Source: an uncultured Verrucomicrobiota bacterium
GTDB lineage: Bacteria; Verrucomicrobiota; Verrucomicrobiia; Limisphaerales; CAZCUL01
Length of the DNA: 30,936 bases
Assembly: GCA_964501475.1 (NCBI GenBank)
Contig: CAZCUL010000468.1
Span: 1-30,936, forward strand
Reading direction: 5' to 3'
The position numbers and the translations under genes are program-made. Shown here piece by piece: positions 3,001 through 25,750 of this stretch; position 1 is the first letter of the stretch, and every line of letters starts with the position of its first letter. The notes beneath the pieces are model-generated. The model worked only from the letters and a program-made list of their open reading frames with translations. It did not search any database and was not told the origin of the DNA.

Positions 3001-4099
3001 CGACCAAGTGCTCGCCCTGGCCGTCGCCACCAAGCAGGACGAGTCTGTTTTGCGAGCTCTCCACCAGATTGGGCGCCCGCGCAATCGGACCTTCGCCGCC
3101 TGGCAATTCGAATCACTGGCCGGTTTCCTCGAAGCGCTCGATCGACGCGGCGACTCATTCTCGAAATTTAAACTGCGCATGCAGCCTCAGTGGCAAACAA
3201 CCGTCGAGCAGATCGATCGCGCCTTTGCCGCGGCCGGAAGAGTCGCAGGGAACTCAAGGGCCCCCGAACAAGAGCGGATCGCGGCCATTGGCTTGATGGG
3301 ACACCAGGAGGAAAGTCCGGAACAAAGCTGGCGAATGCTGGGCGACTTGCTCACGGCAAAGGAGCCGCTGGCGATTCAACAAGCCGCCTTGCGGGCCTTA
3401 AGCCGGGCGAAAGACGAGGGCGCGGCCGAGATGGTTTTGGCTCATTGGCGTCAGGTCGGCCCCGGACTGCGAAATCAGGTCCTGGGCGCCTTGCTCAGCC
3501 GTCCGGCCTGGGCCACACGCCTGCTGCGCGCGCTCGAAGCAGGAGAGATTCTGCGCCCCGAGCTTGGACCGGCCCAACAACAAAGGCTTCTTCAGCATTC
3601 GTTGGAAACCATCCGCAAACAAGCCGCCAGAATCCTGGGCGGAGTCGCTGCGGACCGACAGCAGATTCTCAAGGATTACCGGCACGTGCCGCAGTTGAAG
3701 GGGGATGCGGAGAACGGTGCGGCAATTTTTCGACAACAATGCGCGTCGTGCCACCGGTTCCGAAATGAAGGGACAACGCTGGGGCCGGATTTGGGCTCGC
3801 TCTCGGACAAGTCCGTGGAGGCGTTGTTGGTGGGCATCCTCGATCCAAACCGGTCTGTCGAAGAGACGTTTGTGAGCTATTCGGCCACGACCCGCGATGG
3901 GCGCGACTTAAGCGGGATCATCACTGCCGAAACGGCCAACAGCATCACTCTTCGGACCGCAGGCGGAATGGAGGAAATTATTTTGCGGAGCGAGGTGAAA
4001 GAGGTAAAGAGCGGCGGGTTGTCTCTCATGCCCGAAGGATTGGAAAAGGCGATTCCCCCGCAAGGCATGGCGGATTTGATCCGCTACTTGCAGAATTGA
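2..4099 (+). CDS. 5'-truncated multidomain protein: polysaccharide-deacetylase-like segment, FG-GAP/VCBS repeats, PVC-type membrane-bound dehydrogenase (glucose/sorbosone dehydrogenase-like propeller), HEAT repeats and C-terminal c-type cytochrome
   Basis: The frame is open from base 2 (FRKYLPTETNATTRVS precedes the Met at 50), so the gene starts left of the window. Motifs: VFNLVFHPHGW...KFLSF (CE4-like end); DLNQDGFQD, DLDGDGRCE and DLNEDGHDD Ca-binding repeats; PEESLKALQVRPGFKVELAASEPLVMDPVAFDWGADGRLWIVEMRDYP and WFRPTMLKTGPDGALYIADMY (PVC dehydrogenase family); VREHAVRLSE/VRYQLAFSLG HEAT-like repeats; CASCH heme motif at 3740-3754 followed by GPDL and SLMPEGLE. Confidence 0.85.
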   Translation, partial: FRKYLPTETNATTRVSMESFVTTIEDYPYPYVIGNVCWEFPCMVPSDWEAHNLQGSNHPETVEDWKAALDAVVIKQGVFNLVFHPHGWIRSDQVIDLINHAAEKYGPSVKFLSFREAQARLDKHLLQGNPLRNRHGRDNGVRLIDLNQDGFQDVVIGNPEMRRTRLWLPTAAAWAEGEFPTDLVRESSGGSLIDTGVRFGVLESNTVMLVRRPDLAGAWRFDGQRWAADGALLAGLELEGEPVFTAREGRDRGARLRDLDGDGRCEFIVANESQNAVFAWSPVERSWRKAKYALPEGGRIVGAEGHDAGLRWVDLNEDGHDDILFSNPERCGVYLFVPKPVPHLGWERGWTREIRSGKAGEDRAIPQIVREGPHRNNGVWFHSRRLWMQNEDTAHLPDKVDRRSFAELLTFEAPPARTPEESLKALQVRPGFKVELAASEPLVMDPVAFDWGADGRLWIVEMRDYPSGLDGRGKPGGRVRFLEDRDGDGRYEESTIFLDDINFPTGLMPWREGILVSAAPDIFYAEDTNGDGKADKRVVLFSGFNEGNQQHRVNGFELGLDGWVYGANGDSGGNIHSVGAVKARDPERTNAPPIDLRGHDFRFRPDEGVFETVEGQTQFGRHRDDWGNWFGNNNPAWLWHYWIPEQYLRRNPHLALRSTKESLANYPGNTRVFAVSQPLARFNWPGLLNILTSANSPTPYRDELFGPDFASTIFISEPANNLVHREVLDPSGVTFTSRRALDEQDREFLASADNWFRPTMLKTGPDGALYIADMYRLAIEHLEYALPGMEKQIDVRAGDDKGRLYRVYPEAASPREIRRLDQLGPVELVAALDSPNGWQRDTAQRLLLHARDRRAIDPLANLFRTTRNAKARVQALWTLADLGGLDAGLLDEALKDAHPIVREHAVRLSEPFAQPPPPLAGTLSRLVNDPEIRVRYQLAFSLGERGDEGAGHALAALALRDAALPQMRTAIMTSAPKHCATMLDALVRQHAARPEAVDLLDQVLALAVATKQDESVLRALHQIGRPRNRTFAAWQFESLAGFLEALDRRGDSFSKFKLRMQPQWQTTVEQIDRAFAAAGRVAGNSRAPEQERIAAIGLMGHQEESPEQSWRMLGDLLTAKEPLAIQQAALRALSRAKDEGAAEMVLAHWRQVGPGLRNQVLGALLSRPAWATRLLRALEAGEILRPELGPAQQQRLLQHSLETIRKQAARILGGVAADRQQILKDYRHVPQLKGDAENGAAIFRQQCASCHRFRNEGTTLGPDLGSLSDKSVEALLVGILDPNRSVEETFVSYSATTRDGRDLSGIITAETANSITLRTAGGMEEIILRSEVKEVKSGGLSLMPEGLEKAIPPQGMADLIRYLQN

Positions 4100-4359: not shown

Positions 4360-4387
4360 TTGTCAAGGCGGTCCGGCCCGATACGCT
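4360..4387 (+). promoter_or_regulatory. Putative sigma70-type promoter for tpsA-tpsB, with its -35 inside a short palindrome
   Basis: TTGTCA (4360-4365), 16 nt spacer, TACGCT (4382-4387), then 17 nt to the ATG at 4405. The -35 lies within GCCTTG-T-CAAGGC (4357-4369). Motif match only. Confidence 0.4.
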
Positions 4388-4404: not shown

Positions 4405-7400
4405 ATGAACCCAAGCAGCCTCAACCGGGCTTTTGTTGTCTGCGCTGTCCATGCCTGCCTGCTGAATGCCGGCTACTCGCAGGTGATGTTGGATGGTTCC
4501 CTGGGGCCAGGCGGCCCGCTCGCCGGGCCGGACTATCAAATCGGCGCCGATCTCGGCCGTCAAATCGGGCCAAACCTTTTCCACAGTTTCAGCGAATTCA
4601 ATTTGGTCAATGGGGACGTCGCCAACTTCTCCGGGCCCGCCGAAATCGGGAACATCCTTGCACGGGTCACCGGCGGGAACGCCTCATCCATTGATGGGAC
4701 GCTCCGGTCCGACGTAACGGGAGCCAATTTGTTTTTGATCAACCCGGCCGGCGTCATGTTCGGCCAAAACGCCAGCCTGGATATCAGCGGCTCATTCGTG
4801 GTGACCACAGCCGATTATCTGCGTTTGGCAGACGGCGGCAGATTTGAGGCGCTGGAACCTTCAGCAAGCCTGCTCAGTGCGGCGCCTCCGGACGCATTCG
4901 GGTTCCTGGACAATGCCATCAACGCCATTGAATTGAATCGCGCCCAACTCCAGCTTACCGACGGCCAGTCAGTCTCTCTCGTGGGCGGCGAGGTGTCGAT
5001 GGGTCTGCTTTCGCGCCTTACGGCGCCAGCGGGGCGTGTGGCCATCACCAGTGTCGGTTCCGCAGGCGAGGTCGAAGGGATATTCGACCCGGAACCGACC
5101 TCGGCTGCACTTGGAGGAACGGTCACGCTGGGAGCGCTTTCAAGCATCAATACGGGAGCGGCGCAGGCAGATCAATCGGGGGGCGCGGTATTGATCCGGG
5201 CCGGGCGCCTGGTAATGGAGGATGCGGCGACTATCCGTTCCCATACCAGCGGCAGCGCGGACGGAGGCGAGGTCAGCATCCAGGCTGCGGAGGAGATCCT
5301 CCTCACCGAGGCCGGTCGAATTCTTACTTCCACATCCGGGGCTGGCAACGGCGGGAACATTCGGCTGAGCGCGCCCACCGTTCGGCTGGATGGGGGCGCT
5401 TCACAAGTGGCCCAGGTGGATTCGACCATTAGCGGTCCTGAGGCCACGGGAAGAGGCGGCACCATTACGGTGCAAGCCGACCGGTTGGAATGCTTCCGAG
5501 GCGGGCTCTTCAGCACTCTGACTTCTTCTCCCGGAGCCGGCGGGGACATCGAAGTGCAAGCGAGGGAGATTGTTTTTGACGGCGAGGACATCTTTTTGAC
5601 AGGCCTCGTTGCGGAGACTGACACGGATAGCGGCCCGGTCGGCAGTATATCCGTTACGACGGAACGCCTGGAGATCGGTCCCGGCGGGATCATCACTGCG
5701 ACGACATTTGGCCCTGGCCAGGGGGGGACTATCTCGATTCATGCGAATCAGATCATTTTGGACGCGCGGGGCAACGAAGCGGACCCTGCCGCCATTGTTG
5801 CCCAGGTCGGAGGGGATGGGCCGGGCGGGGCGATTCAGATCGAAACCGAGACGCTGGATTTGCTGGCGGGCGGGCAGATCAGCACTTCGACATTTGGTTC
5901 GGGCAATGGCGGACGACTCGATATCCAAGCCCAGCGCATTTCCATGGATGGGCTCGGAACAGGAATTCCAACCGGGCTCGCCTCCCAAACTGAATCCGAA
6001 GGAGGCGGCGGCAACATCGCGATCGATACCGGAGAGCTCATCATTGCGGACGGGGCGGGCATCTCGACATCCACCTTTGGCCCGGGCGATGCCGGGAACA
6101 TTTCCATACTGGCAAATGAAACGCTTATCGCCGGGCAGGGAATCCAAACCTTTACGGGGATTGCCGCGACCGCTGAACCCGGCTCCAGCGGCAATGGCGG
6201 AAACGTCTCTCTCGAATCGGAAACGGTAACAATCATCGATGTGGGTCACATCCTGACGACGACCGCGGGCTTTGGCTCGGGCGGAAACATTCTCCTCGAT
6301 GCTGAATCGCTTTCGCTCGATCGGGGCGGGTTCATTTCCGCGGAAACCTTCAGCTCCGGTCACGCCGGGAACATCGAGGTTGCGGCCGATGAAATCGATT
6401 TGAACCAGGGCGGATTGATCACCGCCACCACGTTGGGAAGCGGCGACGGAGGGAGCGTGAGTATTCGCGCCGCCATGATCCATATGGACGATTTGGGAAT
6501 GGGATTGCGCACCGGCATCGAAGCGCGCGCCCTGGACTTCTTCGGCGACGGGCGGGCGGGCGATGTCAGCGTCTCTGCCGAAGTCCTGCGCATGTTCGAG
6601 GGCGCCTCCATTTCCACGATCACGATTGGTCCGAAGAGCGCGGGCAACATCGACGTTTCAGCCGGTGAGATATTGCTCGACGGCCGTGGGACGGACACCC
6701 GGATCAGTGCTTCGACATTCTCCGAGGGGGCCGGCGGAGACATTAGTTTGGAAGTCGAGCGGCTGAATTTGCGTGACGGTGGGAACCTCACTACGGCGAC
6801 TCTCGCCGAGGGCAACGCCGGAAATATCGCGATCACAGGTCCCAACGGCGGCCTGGCAGAAGCGATTCTGCTTGATGGCGCCCTGGCTCCAGCGGCGATT
6901 CAGGCTACGTCCGGGTTTTCGAGCGGCCAGGGCGGCAACATCACTATAGGAAGCGCCGGAATAGAAGTGGTCAATGAAGGGTCGATTGTGGCTTCAACCC
7001 AAGGTGCGGGCCAGGGCGGGAATATTTCGATCACGGCAAATCGGTTCCGCCTGGATCAGGGTTCGCTGCTCAGCGCCAGCACCGGTTTCGGTTCCGGCCA
7101 GGGCGGTACGATCCGGGTGGATGGGGGAGCGAGCGTAAGCCTGGCCAATGGCAGCAGCATCAGTTCGGGCACTTTGGGAGAAGGGTTGGCCGGGACCATC
7201 ATTTTCGACATCTCGAGTTTGTCATTGGACGGGTCGGCCACCGTCGAGTCAGGGAGTCTCGGCTCAGGTTCGGCTGGAAGTTTGCAAATCGATGCTTCGG
7301 GCTCCGTTTCGTTGCGCGACCAGTCCCTGCTGAGCACCAGCTCGTTCTTCTCGGATGGCGGCGACATCACGGTCACGGCAGGGCGGAGCATCGAGTTGAG

Positions 7401-7908
7401 GTCCAGCAGCATCTCCGCTCAAGCAGCTTTGGATGGGGGAAACGTTCATTTGCAGGCGCCGCGGCTTGTTTACCTGTTTGGCAGCCAGATCACCGCGGAA
7501 GCCGGTAACAACGGAGGCAACATCACGATTGATCCCACCTTCGTGGTTCTGGACCACAGCCTCATCAACGCCAATGCGATCTTCGGCAACGGGGGGAACA
7601 TCAATATCATCTCGGATTTCTTTTTGCAGAACGACAGCGTCATTACCGCTTCCTCCGAATTCGGTTTTGCCGGCAGCGTGGACATCACCGCGCCGGACGT
7701 GGACCTGAGCGGAAGTTTGACGCCGCTGGCGGTGGTGCTGCTCAGCGGCGCATCGCAGTTGCCCGAACATTGCGCCCGCATGGTGCCGGGCGACGTCAGC
7801 AGCTTTATTGTGCTGGGCCGCGGCGGGCTGCCCATCGTCCCCGGGGGATGGTTGCCCAGTTTTGGCGCGACTCCTCCGAGAAAGGAGAAGCAGGCGGATG
7901 GCTGGTAA
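4405..7908 (+). CDS. Filamentous haemagglutinin-like two-partner secretion exoprotein (TpsA): TPS domain plus beta-helix repeats, about 1167 aa
   Basis: Sec signal MNPSSLNRAFVVCAVHACLLNAGYS|QV, which favours the ATG at 4405 over the track start at 4360. Haemagglutination-activity/TPS domain motifs NLFHSFSEFNL, ILARVTGGNASSIDG and LFLINPAGVMFG. More than 20 Gly-rich repeats of the type I(S/T)xxTxGxGxGGxIxIxA. Adjacent to a TpsB gene. Confidence 0.92.
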   Translation: MNPSSLNRAFVVCAVHACLLNAGYSQVMLDGSLGPGGPLAGPDYQIGADLGRQIGPNLFHSFSEFNLVNGDVANFSGPAEIGNILARVTGGNASSIDGTLRSDVTGANLFLINPAGVMFGQNASLDISGSFVVTTADYLRLADGGRFEALEPSASLLSAAPPDAFGFLDNAINAIELNRAQLQLTDGQSVSLVGGEVSMGLLSRLTAPAGRVAITSVGSAGEVEGIFDPEPTSAALGGTVTLGALSSINTGAAQADQSGGAVLIRAGRLVMEDAATIRSHTSGSADGGEVSIQAAEEILLTEAGRILTSTSGAGNGGNIRLSAPTVRLDGGASQVAQVDSTISGPEATGRGGTITVQADRLECFRGGLFSTLTSSPGAGGDIEVQAREIVFDGEDIFLTGLVAETDTDSGPVGSISVTTERLEIGPGGIITATTFGPGQGGTISIHANQIILDARGNEADPAAIVAQVGGDGPGGAIQIETETLDLLAGGQISTSTFGSGNGGRLDIQAQRISMDGLGTGIPTGLASQTESEGGGGNIAIDTGELIIADGAGISTSTFGPGDAGNISILANETLIAGQGIQTFTGIAATAEPGSSGNGGNVSLESETVTIIDVGHILTTTAGFGSGGNILLDAESLSLDRGGFISAETFSSGHAGNIEVAADEIDLNQGGLITATTLGSGDGGSVSIRAAMIHMDDLGMGLRTGIEARALDFFGDGRAGDVSVSAEVLRMFEGASISTITIGPKSAGNIDVSAGEILLDGRGTDTRISASTFSEGAGGDISLEVERLNLRDGGNLTTATLAEGNAGNIAITGPNGGLAEAILLDGALAPAAIQATSGFSSGQGGNITIGSAGIEVVNEGSIVASTQGAGQGGNISITANRFRLDQGSLLSASTGFGSGQGGTIRVDGGASVSLANGSSISSGTLGEGLAGTIIFDISSLSLDGSATVESGSLGSGSAGSLQIDASGSVSLRDQSLLSTSSFFSDGGDITVTAGRSIELRSSSISAQAALDGGNVHLQAPRLVYLFGSQITAEAGNNGGNITIDPTFVVLDHSLINANAIFGNGGNINIISDFFLQNDSVITASSEFGFAGSVDITAPDVDLSGSLTPLAVVLLSGASQLPEHCARMVPGDVSSFIVLGRGGLPIVPGGWLPSFGATPPRKEKQADGW

Positions 7909-9667
7909 AGCCAGGGGCGGATTCGGGCGTCTCTTCAGGCCAGGCAGCCGGTATGCCGAGGTCCATCTCTTCTTCAGCGGAAGAAAAATCAGAGCCTTCT
8001 TACGCCGGCCGCCACCATTCCTGGGATGGAGTGGAGACGCGCATCTCCGGTTCTGGCTGGCATTGCTTCTTTCTCTTGCAACAGTCGGTGTCTTCGCGCA
8101 GGAGAAACCGCCTGCGGCGGCGCCGCAAGCGGCCCGGCAAGAGCAAAAGCTATCCGACGCGCCGCGCGTCGTGGTGCGCGAATTTCGTTTCGAGGGAAAC
8201 ACCGTGTTCACCGGCGCGGAACTGGCCGATGTGGTCGCCTCTTACCTGAACCGCCCCATCCAGACCGAAGACCTCGAAGAAGCGCGCCGCGCCTTGACGC
8301 TGCACTATGTCAACCGCGGCTACATCAACTCGGGCGCGCTTCTGGAGGATCAACCGGTGGCGGACGGTATCATCACGTTTAGGATTGTGGAAGGACGGCT
8401 CGACGAAGTTCAGGTGGAAGGCAACCGCTGGTTGCGTGACAGCTATATCCGGCCGCGCATTCGCCGCGGAGCCGGGCCGCCCTTGAACATGCGCAGCCTC
8501 AGTCAGGAATTGCTGCTCTTGAAAGAGAATCCCACGATCAAAAGCGTGAACGCAGAGTTGCGGCCCGGCCCGGAACGCGGCAGCAGCTTGCTGGACGTGA
8601 AAGTCACGGAGGAGCTTCCCTTCAGGCTCGGCTTTCAAGTCCGCAACGATCGCCCGCCCAGCGTGGGCGCGGAGTTGTTCGAGCTGCTGGCTGCGCATCA
8701 AAGTGTCCTGGGTTACAGCGACGCGCTCTCGTTGCAATACGGAATTCTTCAGCGCAGCGATAACGGCGCCGAGTTCTCGGAGCTGGACAACCTGGCGGTC
8801 AGTTACGCCGTGCCGGTGACGCCGCGGGATACCACTCTCCAGCTTTTTTATTCGCGCAATAACTATGCGGTCATCGAGGAGCCGTTCGACCAGTTGGATA
8901 TTACGAGCGAATCGACGACTTACGGCGTGAGCATCCGCCAACCGGTTTTCAAATCGACCCGGCGCCAGATCAACCTGGGGCTGTCGGGAGAACGCCGGCA
9001 GAGCAAGACGTTTTTGTTCGACGAGCCCTTCTCGTTTTCGCCGGGAGCGGTGGAGGGCGAATCGACCGTGAGCGTGCTTCGTCTGGTGGCGGAATGGATT
9101 GAACGGAGCCAAAAGCAGGTGATTGCATTTCGTTCCACCGCCAGCGTGGGCGTTGACGTGTTGGACAGCACCGATAATGGCACCTCTCGCGATGGAAAAT
9201 TCTTCTCCTGGCAAAGCCAGGGGCAATATGTGCGGCGCCTCTTTGGCACTTCAGCGGAATTGATCCTGAGCGCGACCGGCCAGTGGGCCAATGACCCGCT
9301 CCTCTCACTCGAGCAATTCAGCATCGGCGGTCTCAACACCGTGCGCGGTTACCGGGAGAACCAGATTGTGCGCGACACGGGCGTGGTTGGATCGGCCGAA
9401 GTGCGTGTCCCGATCTTCAAAGGGCGGGCTGGGAATCCCATCCTGCAGATCGCGCCCTTCTTCGATTACGGGATCGGTTGGAATGTCGATAGTCCGACGC
9501 CGGATCCATCGGACATTGCCAGCGCCGGCCTCGGGCTGCTCTTCGCTCCGACAAAAAAGATTCAAGGCCGTATCTACTGGGGCTACGCCTTCCGCGACTT
9601 CGACACCGACGACGAAGACCTCCAGGATCACGGCATCCACTTCAAGCTCTCGGCGTTCATCTTTTAG
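7898..9667 (+). CDS. ShlB/FhaC/HecB-family outer-membrane transporter (TpsB, Omp85 superfamily)
   Basis: POTRA-like VVVREFRFEGNTVF...LTLHYVNRGYINSGA...ITFRIVEGRLDEVQVEGN; barrel loop motif FSIGGLNTVRGY; terminal Phe. I chose the in-frame ATG at 7898 because AGGAG lies 10 nt upstream; it overlaps the tpsA end by 11 nt. The exact start is uncertain. Confidence 0.93.
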   Translation: MAGKARGGFGRLFRPGSRYAEVHLFFSGRKIRAFLRRPPPFLGWSGDAHLRFWLALLLSLATVGVFAQEKPPAAAPQAARQEQKLSDAPRVVVREFRFEGNTVFTGAELADVVASYLNRPIQTEDLEEARRALTLHYVNRGYINSGALLEDQPVADGIITFRIVEGRLDEVQVEGNRWLRDSYIRPRIRRGAGPPLNMRSLSQELLLLKENPTIKSVNAELRPGPERGSSLLDVKVTEELPFRLGFQVRNDRPPSVGAELFELLAAHQSVLGYSDALSLQYGILQRSDNGAEFSELDNLAVSYAVPVTPRDTTLQLFYSRNNYAVIEEPFDQLDITSESTTYGVSIRQPVFKSTRRQINLGLSGERRQSKTFLFDEPFSFSPGAVEGESTVSVLRLVAEWIERSQKQVIAFRSTASVGVDVLDSTDNGTSRDGKFFSWQSQGQYVRRLFGTSAELILSATGQWANDPLLSLEQFSIGGLNTVRGYRENQIVRDTGVVGSAEVRVPIFKGRAGNPILQIAPFFDYGIGWNVDSPTPDPSDIASAGLGLLFAPTKKIQGRIYWGYAFRDFDTDDEDLQDHGIHFKLSAFIF

Positions 9668-9763
9668 CTGGACTCCTCTGGCCAGTGAGCGGCCCGTCAA
9701 TGAAACCCCTTTAAAGAGCCGGAGCGTCCTCACACCGCTGCTGCCAGGTGGGAGAAGGCCTGT

Positions 9764-10510
9764 TTATTGAGAGCTCTCGTCCGCATCGGCTGCTTCTGCC
9801 AAACCGACCTGCCTTAAGAGTCCGGCGCGGGTGCGCCGCCACTCTGGATTGTCCGGATCGGACTCGGTCAGTTCGCCAAGTGCATCCAAGGCGTCGTACC
9901 AAAGACCGGCCTGCGCGTAGGTTGCGGGGCGTTCGCCGGGGGCAACGCCGGTGAGCTTTTCAGCAGTCTGTTGTTCCAGGGGGGCGCGTTTGATGACGCC
10001 ACTGGCCACAATGTCTTTTGAGCGATTCTCCGGATCGGGCACGACCGAAACGGACCAGCGATACTCGATGCCCGGCGCCAATTTCACATTGTGCCGGCTC
10101 AAATCGATTTTGCGAATCTTCCCCTGGCCGGCTTCCGCCAGCGGGATTTCCAGGAGAGGAGCGATCTCCTGCTCGCTGATGAGCGTGAACTCCATCCGCG
10201 TCTTCGTGGGGCCTGATTGATACCAGAACAAAACGGGCGATTCCCGGCTGGTCAGGGCGGCATGGTCCGGCGCCAAAACCAGCAACCGCGGCCATTCATC
10301 GTCAGCCCCGCGCGACCCGGCGTCCACCCGGACTTTTGGCGCCCCCAGGAGCGGTGGCACGTAAACGACGCGATTGGTGGCCACAGGCCCTTTGGCTTGC
10401 GGACTTTTCTGCTGGACCGGCCGGGCCTGCCGCTTCTCGGCCGCCGAGGCGGCGAGTGAAAGAGCCAGCCACACGGCCAGCGATAGGGATTGGAATCGAA
10501 CAGAGTTCAT
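9764..10510 (-). CDS. Exported DUF928-family protein
   Basis: Signal peptide MNSVRFQSLSLAVWLALSLAASA|AE. Family-like motifs YVPP..GAP..RVDAGSRG, LLVLAP...LT....PVLFWY, L.PG.EYRW...V, and YAQAGLWYDALD.L..L....P.....W..LL.QVGL. Its ATG overlaps the cyclase TGA (ATGA). Confidence 0.82.
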   Translation of the reverse strand: MNSVRFQSLSLAVWLALSLAASAAEKRQARPVQQKSPQAKGPVATNRVVYVPPLLGAPKVRVDAGSRGADDEWPRLLVLAPDHAALTSRESPVLFWYQSGPTKTRMEFTLISEQEIAPLLEIPLAEAGQGKIRKIDLSRHNVKLAPGIEYRWSVSVVPDPENRSKDIVASGVIKRAPLEQQTAEKLTGVAPGERPATYAQAGLWYDALDALGELTESDPDNPEWRRTRAGLLRQVGLAEAADADESSQ

Positions 10511-12441
10511 GTCGTTTCTTTCTCTCCAAAAATCTGAAAGACCTTAACTTTCTGCGCTTTCCCTTTCAAGACGAACGAACCGGCCTCTTTTGCGCTGAAT
10601 CGATCCGAAATCAGCGTCCAGGTCGGTTCGCCCACAAGGACGCGGCAATGAGGCAAAGGCGATTCGGGCGCGTTGACAGTGCGGTCAAAACTTTCGAGAC
10701 GGGAAGCTGTGTTTACCGAGTCGCCCACGACTGTAAACTTCAATCGCTCGCGGCTTCCCAGGCTGCCCGTCACCACCGCTCCCGTGAAAATGCCCACCCT
10801 CATCTCCGCGGTGGGCTTGCCCGCCTCGCGCCAGCGGACATTCAGTTCTGCCAGCGCTCTCCCCATGCCCAGGGCGGCTTCGACCGCCTGAACTGCATCG
10901 TCACGAATTTGACCGGCAGAGGTGCGCGGAACCGGAATGCCAAAAATGGCCATAATGCCGTCTCCGGTGTACTCGTTCAACACCCCGCCGCATTTCAAAA
11001 TCTCCTCGGTCATCACCTCCATATATTCGTTGAGCCAATTCATCATGAAGGCCGGTTCCATCTTTTCGGAAACAGTGGTGAATCCTGCCAGGTCCGTGAA
11101 CAGGATCGTAGCGGTCAGCGACTGCGGGCGCAGGCGATGCCCTTCCATGAAGTTACCGCGATGCTCCCAGATCTCCCGGGCGATCTGAGGCGAGACGTGC
11201 TTGCTGAATAATTGCATGAGCACCATCCGGTCGCGGCGTTCGCGGTAGTATTGGAACGCAGTGCTCATGACGGCCCCTGGAACAAAGGCGGCCGCAGCCG
11301 GCGCCGCCACAATCCACGAATTCATCGCCAGTCCGATCCACGCCGCTCCCGTCAGGATGCAAATGCCGCCGGCGAGTAAAAGGATCACTCTCCAGGGAGA
11401 ACGAATCTGGAAGCCCACCCCCACACCGGCAATCGCCCAAAGCAATATCCACCCCGCCTCGACCCATTCCGGCCAGACCTTCAAAGATTTATCACCCTGC
11501 AGCGCCTGGCGGATCAATTGGTCGATCAAATGCCCATGCAATTCGATGCCATAAGTCACGCGCCGAAGCGGGGTGCTGAAATAATCCTTCACGCTCCGCG
11601 CCGTGACGCCAACAACGGCGATTCGGTCTTTGAGCGTTCCTTGCGGCAAGCGGTTTTCCAACACCTCGGTCAGTGAATACGTTTCAAATTTCGCCGGCCC
11701 CCTGAAGTCGAGAAGAACCTGGTAGCCGCCCGAATCCATGTTCACGTAAGGACCATGATTCGGCCCCAGCCGCGGCAGAACCCGCTTGCCTAACTGCAGA
11801 TCGCCGGGGTTTTCGGCGCTCGGCTGCGGCTCCACACCTTCGGCGCTCAGGTAAAGCAACGCCAATTGCAACGCCAGCCCGGAGTAGTAATTCGTATCCT
11901 TGCTCAGGTAGAGCAGGCCGCGCCGAACCTTATCATCAATCCCTGCATCGGCCGGGAAATCATTGAAGCCGACTCGCTCGGGCCAGGCCGCGAAAAAGGG
12001 TGGTGGCGGAATTCCCGAACTCAACTCGTCGCCGAACTTTTCAATTGCGATGATGTGGGGATGAGCGGCAAAGACCGCATCGAGCCGCGCTCTTCCAATG
12101 CCCGACCGCGGCACTGGAATATCACGATAGAGGTCCAGCCCGATGGATCGCGGTTGCCCGGCTGCCAACCTCTCGAGGAGATCCGCCAGAACCTCGTCCT
12201 CGAGAGCCCAGCCGCCAAATCGCGGATGTTGGATGTCCTCCTCGGTAATGCCAATGAGCACCACCGGAGAAGCGTCAACGGCAGACCGGTTGCGCCATTT
12301 GACGAACTGGTCGTAAAGCCGGAGATCGACGGTCTGCAGCCAGCCTTGACGCCAGAAAAGGAGCGCGAGGCAAAAGGCGGCGGCTCCAATGGCCATGCTT
12401 GCCCCCACGGTCCACCAGGCCTGGCGCCGGGCGCGTGTCAT
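10507..12441 (-). CDS. CHASE2-domain class III nucleotide cyclase, with guanylyl-cyclase-type specificity residues
   Basis: N-terminal TM helix; CHASE2 motifs (VVLIGITEEDIQ, SIGLDLYRD, RIAVVG......DYFSTP, GIELHGHLIDQL); three further TM helices; then the catalytic domain ATILFTDLAGFT (Asp450), NEYTGDGIMAIFG (Glu490, Asp494) and KFTVVGDSVNTASRLES (Lys568, Thr570, Asn577, Arg581). Confidence 0.93.
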   Translation of the reverse strand: MTRARRQAWWTVGASMAIGAAAFCLALLFWRQGWLQTVDLRLYDQFVKWRNRSAVDASPVVLIGITEEDIQHPRFGGWALEDEVLADLLERLAAGQPRSIGLDLYRDIPVPRSGIGRARLDAVFAAHPHIIAIEKFGDELSSGIPPPPFFAAWPERVGFNDFPADAGIDDKVRRGLLYLSKDTNYYSGLALQLALLYLSAEGVEPQPSAENPGDLQLGKRVLPRLGPNHGPYVNMDSGGYQVLLDFRGPAKFETYSLTEVLENRLPQGTLKDRIAVVGVTARSVKDYFSTPLRRVTYGIELHGHLIDQLIRQALQGDKSLKVWPEWVEAGWILLWAIAGVGVGFQIRSPWRVILLLAGGICILTGAAWIGLAMNSWIVAAPAAAAFVPGAVMSTAFQYYRERRDRMVLMQLFSKHVSPQIAREIWEHRGNFMEGHRLRPQSLTATILFTDLAGFTTVSEKMEPAFMMNWLNEYMEVMTEEILKCGGVLNEYTGDGIMAIFGIPVPRTSAGQIRDDAVQAVEAALGMGRALAELNVRWREAGKPTAEMRVGIFTGAVVTGSLGSRERLKFTVVGDSVNTASRLESFDRTVNAPESPLPHCRVLVGEPTWTLISDRFSAKEAGSFVLKGKAQKVKVFQIFGEKETT

Positions 12442-12598
12442 CTCTTTCCCCTCGGGGGTGGGGCAGGGCCGGCCAGGAAAAGGAGAACGGGCTCGGAGTT
12501 TTTTTGACCGTTGATCCGGACGGGCCGGGCGCGCCGTCCTGCGCTCGATTCGGTTTTACCGCCCTGCCGTCGCCCGAGAGTGAACGGGATCATGCCGT

Positions 12599-14914
12599 TC
12601 AAAGCCAGTTTCCAATCAAGAGGTATGGCGACCAATAGTAGGGATGGCCGTAGCGCGGGTCGCTGATGAATTGGAGCTGCGCCAATTGCAACGCCCGCGC
12701 TTTCGATGCGGACTCCAGCTCGAGCTGCTTGTAGAACTCCGTCACTAATGTCGCTGAGGATTGATCGTTCACGGACCAAAGCGTAGCCAGGGCGCTGCGC
12801 GCGCCCGCCTTGAAGGCAACGCCAGCCAGACCCAGAGCCGCGCGTTCGTCGCCCGCCGCCGTCTGACAGGCGCTCAGGGTCAGCAACTCCACCGGTTGCC
12901 CGCGAAACTTTCGCGGTTTGATCAGTCGCTCGAGGTCGTTCAAGCTCAGCCGGTCATTGTAGGTCAGCAGATAAGTGCTGGTGGGATCACGGCTGTTCTG
13001 GCCGAACTCCGCATGCGAAGCCATGTGAACCACCGAGTAGGGCTTCCCCTGGAATTCGGATTCCAGTTTCGCCTTCTGAAACTGCCGGTTCAGGAGGAGG
13101 TCTCCGCCAAACAAGCGGTGGATTTGATCCAGCTCATCATTCACGTAAGGAAGCGCGGACTTGCCCTGCACCGCGTCGGAAACTCCGGTCAACAAAAGAG
13201 CCATGGCGATGGTTTGCAGCCGCTTCGGCTCCATCAGCCGCAACCCGGGACTGATCGCCACCGCAAAACGCTCGACCAGGAACTTCTCCCCATCATGGAG
13301 CGCTGCCGGCGGAATCAGCCGCAACGCGCCGTCCGGAACGAAGACGAGCGTCTTGACTTGATTCGACTCCAACAGCGGCCTGATCGGCTCAATAATCGCC
13401 GCATGAATTGTCTGCGCCAGCGGCAGATACTCGCGCGTCTGTCGCTTCTCCAGCTTCCGGCGCAGTTCGGTCGCGCTCTTCCCCAATTCATCTTGAGTGA
13501 CCGGGCTCTCTCGCCGCTCCAATCCATCTTGCAACCCGACCAGTAACTCTGTCCTGTCCGGCAGCGGAATGACATAGATGACCGCCGTGTCCGCCGCGAT
13601 CTGTTCAATGCCGCTCACTCTGGATAACGCGATGTTGACGCAATCGTCCTGCAAATAGTCCTCGAGCTCGGCGTTCTTGAGCAGCTCCATCGTGTCGCGC
13701 GCTTCCCGAAGAAGCGCCTGCCCCCTGTTCGCGTCCGGTGCGGTCTTTGCCTGCTTTAGAAGCAAATCTGTCCGCTCCAGAAAAAGCCCTCCAAACCCTT
13801 CCCGAAACGATTCAGGGCGAATCTCGTTTCCCGCGGCCGTCATGAGGTCATGCCGCACCCCTTGAAGATGTTCGATGGCCCGGCGGTACGCTGCCAGCGC
13901 GGCGTCAATATCTCCCTCATCGCGCAGCAACCGGGCCAGATTCCATTCCCATCGCATCAAGGCGTCCGGAAGCGGGGTCCGGCTTCCGCTCCAGATGGCC
14001 ATGCGCGTGAACCGTAAAGCCTCGTCGCGCCGCCCACCGGCGTAGGCCCCTTCGCCCAGGTAGCCCAAGGCATACGTCCGGAGGCGTTCATCCTTTAACT
14101 TTTCCGCTGCCGCCAGCGCCTCCTGATAGCACCCTGTGGCGGCATCGAGCGCTTCTTCACCACCGATTTCCTGCAAGGTGCGTCCGACAGAAATGAGGCG
14201 GCTGGCTTGCTCATGCGAAGCCTCCAATTGTTTTATCTTTCGCTCCGCTTCGCGCGCGGCCGTCATCGCTTCTTCCCTATTTCCGGCCATCAGTAGAGCC
14301 CGCGCCTTGTTTGCCAGCGCAAGTGGCTCGATCAGCTTCGCGTCCGCACGCCTCGCCGCGGTTGCCGCCTGATCATAAAAGTCCACCGCTTCGTCGAATC
14401 GCCGCTCGACCAGCCGAAGATTTCCCAGATTATTCAAAATGCTCGCCCGGGCGGCCCCTTCGCCCAGTTCGCCGGCCGCGATCAAAGCGGATTGCAAAAC
14501 CTGTTTGGCCTGCGCTGTCGCGCCCTGAAGGGTGTGAAGAACCCCTGTCAATTCAGCAGCGGCAGCGACCGATTTCGCGTCGCCCGCCTGGCGCGCCGAT
14601 TCCGCCGCCTCCGTTGCCGTCTGCAAGGCAAGCCGCCCCTGGCCCATCGCCTGATACGTGTAGGCCAGCTTGAGCATGCTCTCGATTTGACGGCTCGATT
14701 CGCCGGCTTTGCCGAAGAGCCGGGCCGCCTCCTGCCACGACTTCGCGGCCGCGCCAAAGTCGCCGCGCTCGGAACCCTGTTGGCCCGCCTCAAAATGATC
14801 CGACGCTGAAAAAGCCGAGTGTTTTGAGGCGGCAGGAGATGCCGGAGCCAGAAGGCAGACGACTGACAAAGCTGTCCAGGAGGCAAGAAGAATTGGGAGA
14901 GGGCGTGGCTTCAC
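12599..14914 (-). CDS. Signal-peptide-bearing TPR-repeat CHAT-domain (caspase/HetF-like) peptidase
   Basis: GTG start. Hydrophobic N-terminus MKPRPLPILLASWTALSVVCLLAPASPA. TPR-like repeats such as ASILNNLGNLRLVERRFDEAVDFYDQA. CHAT motifs LVFVPDGALRLIPPAAL, VVHMASHAEF (His634, 13013-13015), LLTLSACQTA (Cys683, 12866-12868), ALATLWSVND and HPYYWSPYLLIGNWL. Confidence 0.93.
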   Translation of the reverse strand: MKPRPLPILLASWTALSVVCLLAPASPAASKHSAFSASDHFEAGQQGSERGDFGAAAKSWQEAARLFGKAGESSRQIESMLKLAYTYQAMGQGRLALQTATEAAESARQAGDAKSVAAAAELTGVLHTLQGATAQAKQVLQSALIAAGELGEGAARASILNNLGNLRLVERRFDEAVDFYDQAATAARRADAKLIEPLALANKARALLMAGNREEAMTAAREAERKIKQLEASHEQASRLISVGRTLQEIGGEEALDAATGCYQEALAAAEKLKDERLRTYALGYLGEGAYAGGRRDEALRFTRMAIWSGSRTPLPDALMRWEWNLARLLRDEGDIDAALAAYRRAIEHLQGVRHDLMTAAGNEIRPESFREGFGGLFLERTDLLLKQAKTAPDANRGQALLREARDTMELLKNAELEDYLQDDCVNIALSRVSGIEQIAADTAVIYVIPLPDRTELLVGLQDGLERRESPVTQDELGKSATELRRKLEKRQTREYLPLAQTIHAAIIEPIRPLLESNQVKTLVFVPDGALRLIPPAALHDGEKFLVERFAVAISPGLRLMEPKRLQTIAMALLLTGVSDAVQGKSALPYVNDELDQIHRLFGGDLLLNRQFQKAKLESEFQGKPYSVVHMASHAEFGQNSRDPTSTYLLTYNDRLSLNDLERLIKPRKFRGQPVELLTLSACQTAAGDERAALGLAGVAFKAGARSALATLWSVNDQSSATLVTEFYKQLELESASKARALQLAQLQFISDPRYGHPYYWSPYLLIGNWL

Positions 14915-20218: not shown

Positions 20219-20400
20219 TTCGAATGCGGGATCGGTTTGAATCGAATGTGAATCTGGCGCGGGATGACAGGGAGAGAATTCCCCTGGATGGCGCGGCACG
20301 AATGGAATTCCTGGACCAGCGCCTGCCCGGGCACTCCAAATTACCTGGATGTGGAGGCAGGTCTCCGGAGAGGAGGGGCATTGGCAAATGCCGGGCCTGG

Positions 20401-23404: not shown

Positions 23405-23562
23405 ACTTTGGCGTGATGGTGCGAGCGCGTTTTTGCAGGAACGGGAGCAGCCCCCGCAAGGAGACTCCGGCTTTCCTGCTCCAAAGCACTGTGAGTCCCA
23501 AGCCGGCTTCGACCGAATTGCGGGTCAGGCGGAAGGTTGCGACTCGCTTCTCCAGGCGGGGG

Positions 23563-25320: not shown

Positions 25321-25371
25321 AGCGCCCGGCTGCTTCCTCGAGCGGCTCATGGCCAGGATTGGCCCGTTGTT

Positions 25372-25591
25372 AAAGCGCCAGAGGACTAAGAGGACTGGCG
25401 CAGTCCAAAACCTGGCGGACCTCCCAGCGGCTCGGGTGAACGCGAAGCGTCTTGGACTGCGGGTAGTCCTCTACCGCTTTCTTCCGGAGCGTGCTGAGGC
25501 TGATGGGCAAGATTCCCCCGTCGGCCATCCTGTGTCCGCGGGCAAAGCGCCAGAGGACTTAGAGGACTGGCGCAGTCCAAGACCTGGCGGA
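25372..25591. repeat. Cluster of three REP-like palindromic elements in alternating orientation (BIME-like)
   Basis: Copy 1 (25372-25419) and copy 3 (25544-25591) match at 46 of 48 positions: AAAGCGCCAGAGGACT(A/T)AGAGGACTGGCGCAGTCCAA(A/G)ACCTGGCGGA. Copy 2 (25446-25480) is inverted and reads AAAGCGGTAGAGGACTACCCGCAGTCCAAGACGCT on the - strand. Confidence 0.88.
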
Positions 25592-25750
25592 ATCGCCCGG
25601 CTGCTGCGGCTGAGGACAGCCGCACGCCGGTGTAGCGGGCCTGTTGGGGCGGTTGGGACGAAATGGGGTTGAAAGCTTATGCTCGATGTCTCTAGGATAT
25701 TCCCGCACCGAAACAGAGCGCATGGAAGCGAAGCTGTCACGAAGACCAGG

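What the first reader, a model, noticed from the sequence alone, without database searches (positions are those of the whole stretch)
4405..14914. Candidate trans-envelope signalling system: TPS adhesin, exported caspase-like protease, CHASE2 cyclase and DUF928
Seen: five contiguous genes in two convergent units (tpsA-tpsB on +; CHAT, cyclase, DUF928 on -). Every product has an export or membrane signal, and together they span cell surface, outer membrane, periplasm, inner membrane and cytoplasm. No toxin-immunity pair or mobility gene is present. Established: TpsB exports TpsA; CHAT domains are His-Cys caspase-fold peptidases; CHASE2 is an extracytoplasmic sensor. Sinorhizobium CHASE2 cyclases (CyaD1/D2/K) depend on the outer-membrane receptor NsrA, and the Pseudomonas TPS adhesin CdrA is released by the periplasmic protease LapG under cyclic-nucleotide control. 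I recall FHA-ShlB-CHAT-DUF928-CHASE2 neighbourhoods in cyanobacterial annotations but know of no worked-out mechanism. Inference: surface contact by TpsA is relayed by regulated proteolysis to a cyclic-nucleotide output, or cyclic nucleotide controls adhesin release. The module may be shared horizontally with cyanobacteria-type loci.
Basis: partly seen in the sequence, partly recalled or inferred. Interest (0 to 1): 0.88.

Follow-up and report, generated by a model that had tools for sequence, protein, structure and literature searches.

The report
Conserved envelope-spanning TPS–protease–cyclase signalling module
Five neighbouring genes encode a secreted filament with its outer-membrane exporter, an exported caspase-like protease, a small periplasmic adaptor and a membrane receptor that makes a cyclic nucleotide; they are kept together in at least five bacterial phyla, which suggests an unstudied system for passing information from the cell surface to the cytoplasm.

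Summary
Window 4405-14914 holds tpsA-tpsB (+) converging on TPR-CHAT, CHASE2-cyclase and DUF928 (-). All five are intact and all have export or membrane segments.

The decisive test, co-occurrence, is passed. Of 42 DUF928-anchored genome loci with enough flank, 36 carry CHAT plus CHASE2 and 36 carry TPS genes. Forty-four loci hold all five genes in about ten different gene orders. They come from Verrucomicrobiota, Desulfobacterota, Beta- and Gammaproteobacteria, Rokubacteria and cyanobacterial plasmids. Anchoring instead on the TpsA C-terminus recovers DUF928 in 13 of 14 loci.

New findings:
- The CHAT His-Cys dyad and its signal sequence are present in 56 of 56 orthologues.
- TpsA carries a family-specific C-terminal module (C…SSFxVxGRGGLPxxP).
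- DUF928 models as an Ig-like plus TPR-like protein. Its best structural match is MtxA, whose gene also sits beside a CHASE2 cyclase.
- The cytoplasmic domain fused to CHASE2 differs between loci (cyclase, histidine kinase, CHAT, none).

These favour outside-in signalling, with DUF928 as the CHASE2 partner and TPR-CHAT as a periplasmic switch protease like DdvA or Craspase. The protease substrate and the direction of signalling remain inferred. I found no paper describing the module.

The parts
4405..7908 (+). tpsA: secreted beta-helical exoprotein, 1167 aa from ATG 4405. An upstream TTG at 4360 is also possible.
   Evidence: Pfam TPS E 5.7e-39. TIGR01901 adhes_NPXG E 2.4e-21. Signal-like N-terminus in the sequence.
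4567..5073 (+). TPS secretion domain of TpsA (residues 70-238 of the 1182-aa ORF)
7771..7860 (+). Family-specific C-terminal module of TpsA: C-ARMVPGDV-SSFIVLGRGGLPIVPGGWLPS. It is a candidate periplasmic handle or cleavage site.
   Evidence: A strict regex for the motif matches 62 of 82 complete TpsA C-termini of module loci. A looser form gives 78 unique matching segments across genome, metagenome and cyanobacterial plasmid loci. Its role is inferred.
7898..9667 (+). tpsB: Omp85-type outer-membrane transporter. The start is uncertain; the ORF is open from 7808. It overlaps the end of tpsA.
   Evidence: POTRA_2 E 3.3e-18, ShlB E 5.9e-29, Omp85 E 5e-13. Signal peptide and VRGY motif in the sequence.
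9764..10510 (-). DUF928: exported protein of 248 aa with an Ig-like sandwich plus a TPR-like helical domain. Proposed periplasmic partner of CHASE2.
   Evidence: PF06051 E 5.8e-36. AF2 mean pLDDT 87.8. Best PDB fold match is the MtxA C-terminal domain 4Z29, E 6.9e-5. Conserved N-terminal stretch Y[KR]PPxRGAPxxRVxGG[ST]RG.
10507..12441 (-). CHASE2 receptor fused to a class III nucleotidyl cyclase, 644 aa. Topology: TM1, periplasmic CHASE2, three TM segments, cytoplasmic cyclase. Its stop overlaps the DUF928 start.
11422..12372 (-). CHASE2 periplasmic sensor domain (residues 24-340)
   Evidence: Pfam CHASE2 E 2.9e-60
10537..11115 (-). Cyclase catalytic domain (residues 443-635). D450, D494, N577 and R581 are present. 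The substrate-determining positions are E490 and T570.
   Evidence: The four catalytic residues are conserved in 65-66 of 66 orthologues. Position 490 varies: K31, D16, Q10, A5, R2. In the PDB alignment E490 lines up with a Glu of chain 2W01 and with a Lys of CyaB 3R5G.
12599..14914 (-). Exported TPR-CHAT caspase-like cysteine protease, 771 aa from GTG 14914
   Evidence: CHAT E 5.6e-57 and TPR hits. N-terminal hydrophobic signal in 56 of 56 orthologues, lipobox-like in Desulfobacterota. AF2 mean pLDDT 91. Foldseek: Csx29 E 5e-15, DdvA E 3e-13, separase.
12608..13423 (-). CHAT protease domain (residues 498-769). The His634 codon is 13013-13015 and the Cys683 codon is 12866-12868.
   Evidence: The dyad is invariant in 56 of 56 orthologues.

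Best explanation
The five genes encode one envelope-spanning signalling module that carries information from the surface or periplasm into the cytoplasm.

**Shown by sequence and comparison**
- TpsB is an outer-membrane TPS transporter, and TpsA is its beta-helical exoprotein.
- TpsA ends in a family-specific C-terminal module.
- TPR-CHAT is an exported clan-CD protease with an intact His-Cys dyad.
- DUF928 is an exported protein with Ig-like and TPR-like domains, which are protein-binding folds.
- The CHASE2 protein is an inner-membrane receptor with a catalytically competent class III cyclase.

**Inferred**
1. TpsA is displayed through TpsB with its conserved C-terminal module still on the periplasmic side. 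HMW1, CdrA and FhaB are precedents.
2. That module is the only part of TpsA that the periplasmic proteins can reach. It is bound, and probably cut, by TPR-CHAT. Like Csx29 and (as proposed) DdvA, TPR-CHAT would be switched on by a partner rather than being constitutively active.
3. DUF928 is the periplasmic co-receptor or ligand of CHASE2. It reports the state of the TpsA/CHAT pair to the receptor.
4. The receptor changes cyclic-nucleotide synthesis. In the window this may be cGMP rather than cAMP, given E490.

The target of the nucleotide is not encoded in the module.
For: **Module**
- Of 42 DUF928-anchored loci with at least 6 kb on both sides, 36 have CHAT plus CHASE2 and 36 have TpsA or TpsB.
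- Forty-four loci carry all five genes, in 12 recorded gene-order strings that reduce to about ten arrangements, across several phyla.
- In the reciprocal test anchored on the TpsA C-terminus, 13 of 14 loci with enough downstream DNA have DUF928.
- No sixth gene family is conserved.

**Compartments**
- Signal or TM segments are present in all five products.
- All 56 CHAT orthologues have a signal-like N-terminus.
- One DUF928 relative is fused to a peptidoglycan-binding domain.

**Active enzymes**
- The CHAT dyad is present in 56 of 56 orthologues.
- The cyclase metal-binding and transition-state residues are conserved in 65-66 of 66.

**DUF928 partners CHASE2**
- The two genes are adjacent in most loci.
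- At least 13 of 18 cyanobacterial plasmid records with DUF928 have a CHASE2 gene within about 3 kb.
- The best fold match of DUF928 is MtxA, whose gene is followed by a CHASE2 adenylate cyclase gene (PMC4439547).
- One protein, P0325, carries CHASE2, cyclase, a TM segment and DUF928 in a single chain with a consistent topology.

**Outside-in direction**
- The cytoplasmic domain fused to CHASE2 is a cyclase, a histidine kinase, a CHAT domain or absent, while DUF928 stays.

**Periplasmic TPR-CHAT as a signalling protease**
- The fold matches Csx29 and the periplasmic TPR-CHAT of the anti-sigma factor DdvA (PMC11506125).

**TpsA handle**
- The C-terminal module is conserved from the Verrucomicrobiota-like loci to cyanobacteria.
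- All 8 long-tailed versions have a second Cys downstream of the motif.
Against: - No experiment or complex model links any two of the proteins.
- The protease substrate is unknown.
- The window's TpsA has a short tail with one Cys, so a disulfide anchor like that of HMW1 or CdrA cannot be assumed here.
- One clade keeps CHAT, DUF928 and TPS but has no CHASE2 gene within 10 kb (L032, L056, L066, L075, L076, L092, L096). The cyclase is therefore dispensable for part of the function.
- Other loci keep only CHASE2 plus DUF928 (L018, L023, L024, L061, L072, L083).
- The mtxA deletion had no phenotype (PMC4439547).
- MtxA is matched by fold only, not by sequence profile.
- The P0325 fusion is a single case and could be a lost stop codon.
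- Many loci come from metagenome-assembled genomes with doubtful taxon labels.
Confidence: 0.42

Rival explanations
1. Retention-and-release system for the TpsA, working like Lap. The main job of TPR-CHAT, helped or restrained by DUF928, is to cut the periplasmic C-terminal module and shed or mature the surface TpsA. The CHASE2 cyclase is an accessory sensor that is merely co-regulated, or it sequesters the protease as LapD sequesters LapG.
For: - A clade has CHAT, DUF928, TpsB and TpsA but no cyclase.
- The TpsA C-terminal module is conserved.
- There is a precedent: LapG cuts the TPS substrate CdrA (PMC4694147).
- A TpsB-CHAT gene pair occurs without DUF928 or CHASE2 in Rhabdochromatium.
Against: - No LapG-type or LapD-type domain is present.
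- The cyclase protein has no cytoplasmic input domain that could drive inside-out control.
- CHASE2 plus DUF928 persist without TPS or exported CHAT in many loci.
- H>C>D is the most conserved gene order.
Confidence: 0.22
2. DUF928, not TpsA, is the protease substrate or pro-ligand. TPR-CHAT processes DUF928, for example at the conserved GG[ST]RG stretch, and the product activates or releases CHASE2. The TPS filament only gates or recruits the protease.
For: - The N-terminal stretch of DUF928 is conserved from the Verrucomicrobiota-like loci to cyanobacteria.
- A CHAT-DUF928 pair occurs without TPS or CHASE2 in L081 and beside CHASE2 in Gloeothece.
- DUF928 is the common member of all sub-modules.
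Against: - The AF2 model gives that stretch pLDDT 75-85. It therefore looks packed onto the Ig-like domain rather than a free linear site.
- CHASE2-DUF928 pairs without any exported CHAT nearby are common.
Confidence: 0.15
3. Envelope surveillance or defence module. The periplasmic TPR-CHAT senses a foreign protein (from a phage or a competitor), as proposed for DdvA. The cyclase then raises an alarm nucleotide, as in Pycsar. TpsA acts as a surface decoy or sensor.
For: - The fold matches the periplasmic TPR-CHAT of DdvA (PMC11506125).
- PADLOC PycC models hit the cyclase domain, E 1e-24.
- A CHAT-DUF928 pair lies next to TIR and trypsin-like genes in L081.
- The substrate-determining residue of the cyclase is variable.
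Against: - The PycC hit is what any class III cyclase would give. The solved CyaB cyclase matches it more strongly (E 1.3e-28).
- No effector with a nucleotide-binding domain and no other PADLOC component is present.
- The flanks in the window are housekeeping genes, not a defence island.
Confidence: 0.08
4. The two convergent units are unrelated neighbours, an ordinary TPS pair next to an ordinary sensor operon.
For: In the window they lie on opposite strands with a 96-bp gap and no shared promoter.
Against: - They co-occur in several phyla and in about ten gene orders. These include single-strand A>B>H>C>D operons in 11 loci.
- The reciprocal anchor recovers the partner in 13 of 14 loci.
- The TpsA C-terminal module is family-specific.
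Confidence: 0.02

Closest known systems
[quoted passage not shown]
   Same: It has an extracytoplasmic TPR-CHAT with a His-Cys dyad and is proposed to act as a signal-activated protease in trans-membrane signalling. The model of the window protein matches it at E 3e-13.
   Different: - In DdvA the TPR-CHAT is fused to a TM helix and a zinc anti-sigma domain. The output is an ECF sigma factor.
- Its active site is incomplete and the protein is dimeric.
- It has no TPS, DUF928 or CHASE2 partner.
- Here the protease is a free exported protein, or a lipoprotein in some orthologues.
Csx29, the TPR-CHAT protease of type III-E CRISPR 'Craspase'
   Same: It is the best structural match, E 5e-15. It shares the TPR superhelix plus CHAT architecture and is switched on allosterically by a partner complex.
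   Different: It is cytoplasmic, bound to Cas7-11 and activated by RNA, and its substrate is Csx30. No sequence-level match was found in the PDB.
LapD/LapG control of LapA and of the TPS substrate CdrA/CdrB in Pseudomonas (PMC4694147)
   Same: A periplasmic cysteine protease acts on the periplasm-exposed end of a surface protein held in its outer-membrane pore, and this is coupled to a nucleotide second messenger.
   Different: - LapG is a transglutaminase-like DUF920 protease, not a CHAT protease.
- LapD binds c-di-GMP and signals inside-out.
- No such domains occur here.
- Here the receptor makes the nucleotide rather than binding it.
[quoted passage not shown]
   Same: CHASE2 cyclases there need an outer-membrane beta-barrel protein to perceive an external signal of protein nature.
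   Different: - NsrA is one large protein, not a TPS pair.
- No CHAT or DUF928 component is reported.
- The window's CHASE2 domain did not hit any Sinorhizobium plasmid at E 1e-8, whereas it hit 31 cyanobacterial plasmid records.
MtxA (MGR_0208) of Magnetospirillum gryphiswaldense, PDB 4Z29 (PMC4439547)
   Same: It is an exported protein whose C-terminal half is an Ig-like domain packed on a TPR-like domain, and its gene is followed by a CHASE2 adenylate cyclase gene. It is the best fold match of the DUF928 model, E 6.9e-5, target-normalised TM 0.58.
   Different: - A DUF928 profile detects no sequence similarity to it.
- MtxA is longer, with an extra N-terminal domain.
- No TPS or CHAT partner is described.
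- Its deletion gave no phenotype.
LysM-FecR protein plus CHASE2 histidine kinase operon of Burkholderia (PMC5192318)
   Same: A CHASE2 receptor is encoded next to an exported accessory protein, and the cytoplasmic output varies. A peptidoglycan-binding domain is also found fused to one DUF928 relative.
   Different: The accessory protein is of FecR type, not DUF928, and there is no TPS or CHAT component.
Surface tethering of TPS substrates by a periplasmic C-terminus: HMW1/HMW1B, CdrA, and the FhaB prodomain processed by DegP/CtpA/SphB1 (PMC8263021; the HMW1 and CdrA details are from my own knowledge)
   Same: In these systems the C-terminus of a TpsA stays periplasmic and is a site of anchoring and regulated proteolysis. 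The long-tailed members of this family have two Cys flanking the motif.
   Different: The motif here is different, the protease class is different, and the window's own TpsA has only one Cys in the tail.

Membership tests
Two-partner secretion (type Vb) | TpsA with an N-terminal TPS domain (NPxG-type motif) | tested here: met
   PF05860 E 5.7e-39; TIGR01901 E 2.4e-21
Two-partner secretion (type Vb) | TpsB with POTRA domains, an Omp85-type barrel and the loop-6 VRGY motif, encoded next to tpsA | tested here: met
   POTRA_2, ShlB and Omp85 hits. VRGY is present in the sequence. The two genes overlap.
Two-partner secretion (type Vb) | TpsB-dependent export of TpsA | not testable with these tools
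   Needs an experiment.
TPR-CHAT clan-CD proteases (Csx29, separase, DdvA) | CHAT domain with a His-Cys catalytic dyad | tested here: met
   PF12770 E 5.6e-57. H634 and C683 are invariant in 56 of 56 orthologues.
TPR-CHAT clan-CD proteases (Csx29, separase, DdvA) | N-terminal TPR superhelix packed on the CHAT domain, giving fold similarity to Csx29, DdvA and separase | tested here: met
   AF2 mean pLDDT 91. Foldseek E 5e-15 (Csx29), 3e-13 (DdvA), about 4e-11 (separase).
TPR-CHAT clan-CD proteases (Csx29, separase, DdvA) | Peptidase activity and partner-dependent activation | not testable with these tools
   Needs an enzyme assay.
CHASE2 class III nucleotidyl cyclases (Cya2, CyaD1/D2/K) | Periplasmic CHASE2 domain between TM segments, followed by a class III cyclase domain | tested here: met
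   CHASE2 E 2.9e-60 and Guanylate_cyc E 6.5e-20. TM segments are visible in the sequence.
CHASE2 class III nucleotidyl cyclases (Cya2, CyaD1/D2/K) | Two metal-binding Asp plus the transition-state Asn and Arg | tested here: met
   D450, D494 and R581 are in 66 of 66 orthologues and N577 in 65 of 66.
CHASE2 class III nucleotidyl cyclases (Cya2, CyaD1/D2/K) | Adenylate-specific Lys (with Asp or Thr) at the substrate-determining positions | tested here: not met
   The window has E490 and T570. E490 aligns with a Glu of chain 2W01 and with a Lys of CyaB 3R5G. Orthologues vary: K31, D16, Q10, A5. ATP versus GTP is therefore open.
DUF928 (PF06051) | Match to the family model above its threshold | tested here: met
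   124 bits against a cut-off of 26. The family is large: 7208 clusters at 50% identity with E <= 1e-3.
Lap-type adhesin release (LapD/LapG) | LapG-type DUF920 protease and a LapD GGDEF-EAL c-di-GMP receptor | tested here: not met
   No such domain is found in any of the nine ORFs scanned in the first 19 kb of the window.
Contact-dependent inhibition (CdiA/CdiB/CdiI) | Pre-toxin motif, a variable C-terminal toxin domain and an adjacent immunity gene | tested here: not met
   TpsA ends 45 residues after the conserved Cys, and TPS is its only Pfam hit. The next genes are tpsB and then the convergent DUF928 gene.
Cell-surface signalling (TonB transducer / FecR / ECF sigma) | TonB-dependent transducer, FecR-type anti-sigma factor and an ECF sigma factor | tested here: not met
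   None is found in the window's module or among the conserved neighbours.
Pycsar / CBASS-type defence | A cyclase plus an effector with a nucleotide-sensing domain | tested here: not met
   Only a generic PycC hit to the cyclase domain. No effector family is conserved nearby.

The most novel reading that the evidence does not exclude
This is a new class of bacterial trans-envelope receptor. A TPS-exported filament serves as the external antenna. Its conserved C-terminal handle in the periplasm is read, and cut, by a partner-activated caspase-like TPR-CHAT protease. The DUF928 adaptor then passes the event to CHASE2. If so, CHASE2 is a sensor of a protein partner rather than of a small molecule. 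Its outputs are interchangeable: a cyclase here, and a histidine kinase or a cytoplasmic CHAT protease in cyanobacteria.
Probability: 0.25. Interest if true: 0.9.

Novelty: new variant of a known kind. Interest (0 to 1): 0.78.

Why it matters
- **CHASE2 input.** CHASE2 was defined in 2003 and its input is still described as unknown (PMC5192318). A conserved periplasmic partner (DUF928) and a conserved upstream apparatus (TPS plus TPR-CHAT) give concrete candidates to test.
- **Extracytoplasmic CHAT proteases.** Only one has been studied, DdvA, and its substrate and stimulus are still unknown. This module offers a free-standing, catalytically complete version with a short list of candidate substrates.
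- **Role of TPS.** It would extend two-partner secretion from adhesion and toxin delivery to signal reception.
- **DUF928.** It assigns a working role to DUF928, a family of several thousand sequence clusters that is named in a single paper of the searched library.
- **Tractability.** The module also occurs in cultured cyanobacteria, so it can be tested experimentally.

Tried and rejected
1. I searched the big protein collection with the TpsA C-terminal 143 aa to look for fusions. Only 28 short fragments came back, with no architecture information.
2. I tested whether the N-terminal stretch of DUF928 mimics the TpsA C-terminal motif. hhalign of the two alignments gave probability 0.14% over 4 columns, so I rejected the idea.
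3. The apparent CHAT-CHASE2 fusion in L001 is a run of N in the record, not a fusion.
4. A DUF928 sequence profile against PDB sequences gave only chance-level antibody light-chain hits (E >= 0.16). MtxA is matched by fold only.
5. I looked for a sixth conserved gene, for example a cyclic-nucleotide receptor, by all-against-all clustering of flanking ORFs. There is none. The next most frequent families occur in 13 of 80 loci. One is a protein with a HYR-like domain and the other has no Pfam match.
6. Rfam gave no match in the window. Promoter-like and terminator-like sites are no more frequent than in shuffles.
7. NCBIfam has no specific model for any of the five proteins. PADLOC gave only a generic PycC cyclase hit.
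8. The look-up of the Azospirillum halopraeferens DUF928 protein (P0101) found no contig on record.
9. The first alignments for the collection scans were too diverse to yield search patterns. The metagenome scan then used beta-helix patterns rather than the GRGGLP motif, so it sampled only close relatives.
10. I built no per-gene phylogenies, so I make no claim about horizontal transfer.
Full report
**1. What is in the window**

ORF listing and Pfam scans confirm five intact genes in two convergent units.

| Gene | Coordinates | Evidence |
|---|---|---|
| tpsA | 4405-7908 + | TPS domain E 5.7e-39 |
| tpsB | ORF open from 7808, first ATG 7898, to 9667 + | POTRA_2 E 3e-18; ShlB E 6e-29 |
| DUF928 | 9764-10510 - | PF06051 E 5.8e-36 |
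| CHASE2-cyclase | 10507-12441 - | CHASE2 E 2.9e-60; Guanylate_cyc E 6.5e-20 |
| TPR-CHAT | 12599-14914 - | CHAT E 5.6e-57 |

- tpsB overlaps the end of tpsA, and the cyclase stop overlaps the DUF928 start.
- Each product has a signal-like N-terminus. The cyclase instead has one TM segment before CHASE2 and three after it.
- Neighbouring genes are housekeeping. Upstream is a DUF7133/cytochrome c protein. Downstream are GlcD/GlcF-like oxidase genes and a radical-SAM gene. Further on are an SDR, BatD, IF-3 and pyruvate kinase.
- GC content is even. There is no mobility gene and no toxin-immunity pair.
- The nearest relatives of the module proteins are labelled Verrucomicrobiota, at only about 45-50% identity.

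**2. Is the association real?**

I anchored on DUF928 and scanned one genome per species. This gave 508 relatives, of which the best 80 loci were kept. I annotated them with the window's own domains.

- Of 42 loci with at least 6 kb on both sides, 36 have CHAT plus CHASE2, 36 have TpsA or TpsB, and 27 have all five at my threshold.
- Including the later loci, 44 carry all five. They were recorded as 12 gene-order strings, which reduce to about ten arrangements:
  - the window's H>C>D> <B<A order, in 15 loci when both orientations are counted;
  - a single-strand A>B>H>C>D operon in 11 loci, mostly labelled Desulfobacterota;
  - A>H>C>D> <B, in 5 loci;
  - <C<H D> <B<A, in 4 loci;
  - several others with one or two loci each.
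- The taxon labels span Verrucomicrobiota, Desulfobacterota, Beta- and Gammaproteobacteria and Rokubacteria. A Scalindua (Planctomycetota) locus carries part of the set. Some labels on metagenome-assembled genomes (Bifidobacteriaceae, Akkermansia, Chloroflexia) look unreliable.
- A reciprocal scan of metagenomes anchored on the TpsA C-terminus gave 14 loci with enough downstream DNA. Thirteen have DUF928 converging on tpsB.
- Clustering of all flanking ORFs found no sixth conserved family.

The TPS pair and the trio co-occur far beyond chance.

**3. Cyanobacteria**

A tblastn search of annotated plasmids found DUF928 in 18 records, all cyanobacterial. At least 13 of them also have a CHASE2 gene of the same subfamily within about 3 kb.

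- Full five-part sets occur in Pseudanabaena sp. ABRG5-3 and Nostoc sp. UHCC 0302.
- In these loci the cytoplasmic part of the CHASE2 protein is not a cyclase. It is a histidine-kinase ATPase domain (L085, L086), an N-terminal CHAT domain (L084, L087, L088) or nothing (L083).
- Interchangeable cytoplasmic domains mark CHASE2, with DUF928, as an input unit.

**4. The individual parts**

*TPR-CHAT*
- H634 and C683 are invariant in 56 of 56 orthologues, within a conserved SACQTAAGDDRAALG block.
- All 56 have an N-terminal hydrophobic segment. It is lipobox-like in the Desulfobacterota versions.
- The public gene call of the window protein starts 79 codons too late and loses this signal.
- The AF2 model (mean pLDDT 91) matches Csx29 of Craspase (E 5e-15), the periplasmic TPR-CHAT of the anti-sigma factor DdvA (E 3e-13) and separase.
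- DdvA is, according to its authors, the only characterised anti-sigma factor with a TPR-CHAT domain. They propose that it is a signal-activated site-1 protease (PMC11506125).

*Cyclase*
- D450, D494 and R581 are conserved in 66 of 66 orthologues, and N577 in 65 of 66. The enzyme should therefore be active.
- The substrate-determining position varies: K31, D16, Q10, A5, R2.
- The window has E490 with T570. E490 aligns with a Glu in PDB chain 2W01 and with a Lys in P. aeruginosa CyaB 3R5G.
- From my own knowledge, 2W01 is the Synechocystis guanylate cyclase Cya2, which is itself a CHASE2 protein. cGMP is therefore possible for the window enzyme, but this is not established.

*DUF928*
- The AF2 model (mean pLDDT 87.8) shows an Ig-like sandwich (residues ~76-175) packed on five TPR-like helices (180-246).
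- The best PDB match is the C-terminal domain of MtxA, which has the same two-domain arrangement (E 6.9e-5).
- MtxA is an exported protein whose gene is followed by a CHASE2 adenylate cyclase gene. Its deletion gave no phenotype (PMC4439547).
- A sequence profile does not detect MtxA, so this is a fold-level and context-level parallel only.
- The family is large, with 7208 clusters at 50% identity.
- Relatives include a version fused to a peptidoglycan-binding domain. Another, P0325, has CHASE2, cyclase, a TM segment and DUF928 in one chain with a coherent topology. P0325 is a single case and could be a lost stop codon.
- A conserved N-terminal stretch, Y[KR]PPxRGAPxxRVxGG[ST]RG, recurs in cyanobacteria as GxxRG followed by Cys.

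*TpsA*
- Apart from the TPS domain it is a plain beta-helix. Nothing shows that it is an adhesin.
- It ends in a module conserved from the Verrucomicrobiota-like loci to cyanobacteria: C-x(5-16)-SSFxVxG[RK][GD][GS][LIV]PxxP (window 7771-7860).
- A strict pattern matches 62 of 82 complete C-termini.
- All eight long tails (46-82 residues after the motif) contain a second Cys. The short tails (12-31 residues), including the window's, contain none.

**5. How it most likely works**

*Shown*
- The module is conserved.
- Four of the products are exported and the fifth is an inner-membrane receptor.
- Both enzymes keep their catalytic residues.
- CHASE2 carries interchangeable cytoplasmic domains.
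- DUF928 is the common member of all sub-modules. CHASE2 plus DUF928 occur alone in L018, L023, L024, L061, L072 and L083. CHAT, DUF928 and TPS occur without a cyclase in L032, L056, L066, L075, L076, L092 and L096. CHAT plus DUF928 occur in another context in L081.

*Inferred*
1. TpsA is displayed through TpsB with its C-terminal module still periplasmic. HMW1, CdrA and FhaB are precedents.
2. That module is engaged, and probably cut, by a partner-activated TPR-CHAT.
3. DUF928 couples this event to CHASE2.
4. The receptor changes cyclic-nucleotide synthesis.

The opposite direction, with the nucleotide controlling release, is less likely. No module protein has a nucleotide-binding domain, and the cyclase protein has no cytoplasmic input domain.

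I put 0.42 on this model. Its rivals are a Lap-like release system (0.22), DUF928 as the true substrate (0.15), envelope surveillance or defence (0.08) and chance (0.02).

**6. Comparison with what is known**

- The module works like trans-envelope systems that use regulated periplasmic proteolysis (Lap/CdrA, cell-surface signalling, DdvA) and like the NsrA-CHASE2 cyclase pathway of S. meliloti.
- It is not a member of any of them. The defining domains of the Lap, CDI, CSS and Pycsar systems are absent.
- Full-text searches found one paper naming DUF928. None combined CHAT with hemagglutinin. None of the top-ranked hits combined CHASE2 with TPS terms.
- I therefore rate it a new variant of a known kind, with a substantial chance that it is a new class of receptor.

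**7. Limits**

- I could run no complex prediction, no phylogeny and no experiment.
- Most loci are from metagenome-assembled genomes.
- My annotation used the window's own domains as queries, so divergent partners may have been missed. If so, the co-occurrence counts are underestimates.

Noticed in passing
window 12599-14914 (-): The public gene call for the CHAT gene (P0145, 692 aa) starts 79 codons downstream of GTG 14914 and drops the signal peptide. Orthologues support the longer form.
   Followed up: yes
window 10972-10974 (-), codon E490 of the cyclase: The substrate-determining residue is Glu in the window but K, D, Q, A or R in orthologues. This much variation is unusual for one orthologous group and hints at differing nucleotide products.
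   Followed up: partly
window 50-4099 (+): A 1349-aa protein with FG-GAP repeats, DUF7133, HEAT repeats and a C-terminal cytochrome c domain lies directly upstream of tpsA. In my experience this architecture is common in the Planctomycetota-Verrucomicrobiota group. It does not appear among the conserved neighbour families in the clustering.
   Followed up: no
window 20224-21330 (+): A 368-aa protein combines weak, below-threshold matches to dual-specificity phosphatase families with a C-terminal cytochrome c' match. This is an odd pairing.
   Followed up: no
window 22037-25320 (+): A 455-aa ORF with no Pfam match is followed by a BatD-family protein. A small ORF and a response-regulator gene lie further on (25349-26257).
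   Followed up: no
L122 6187-12421 (Rhabdochromatium marinum): A three-gene variant: a TM protein with many TPR-like repeats, a TpsB-type transporter and a TPR-CHAT orthologue. No TpsA, DUF928 or CHASE2 gene lies within 10 kb. It suggests a direct TpsB-CHAT link.
   Followed up: partly
L081 1068-16535: A CHAT-DUF928 pair is embedded among TPR, TIR, RyR, trypsin-TPR and S41 peptidase genes, with no TPS or CHASE2. This looks like a different, possibly conflict-related, context for the same pair.
   Followed up: no
P0325 and P0346 (DUF928 relatives): P0325 has CHASE2, cyclase, a TM segment and DUF928 in one 932-aa chain. P0346 has a PG_binding_1 domain fused to DUF928. Tandem double-DUF928 proteins of about 450-500 aa also exist.
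   Followed up: partly
L003 7288-9465 and 12 other loci: A protein with a HYR-like four-cysteine domain is encoded next to the module in 13 of 80 loci; in L003 it lies just upstream of tpsA. It may be a clade-specific extra surface component.
   Followed up: partly
L001 about 7950-8060: A run of N at the CHAT/CHASE2 junction makes the two genes look fused in a stop-to-stop ORF list. This is an artefact.
   Followed up: yes
L001, L002, L003, L009, L013, L036 (record titles): Metagenome-assembled genomes labelled Bifidobacteriaceae, Akkermansia muciniphila or Chloroflexia carry modules with the same gene order as the Verrucomicrobiota-labelled loci and DUF928 about 45-48% identical to the query, like them. 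The labels or the binning are doubtful.
   Followed up: no
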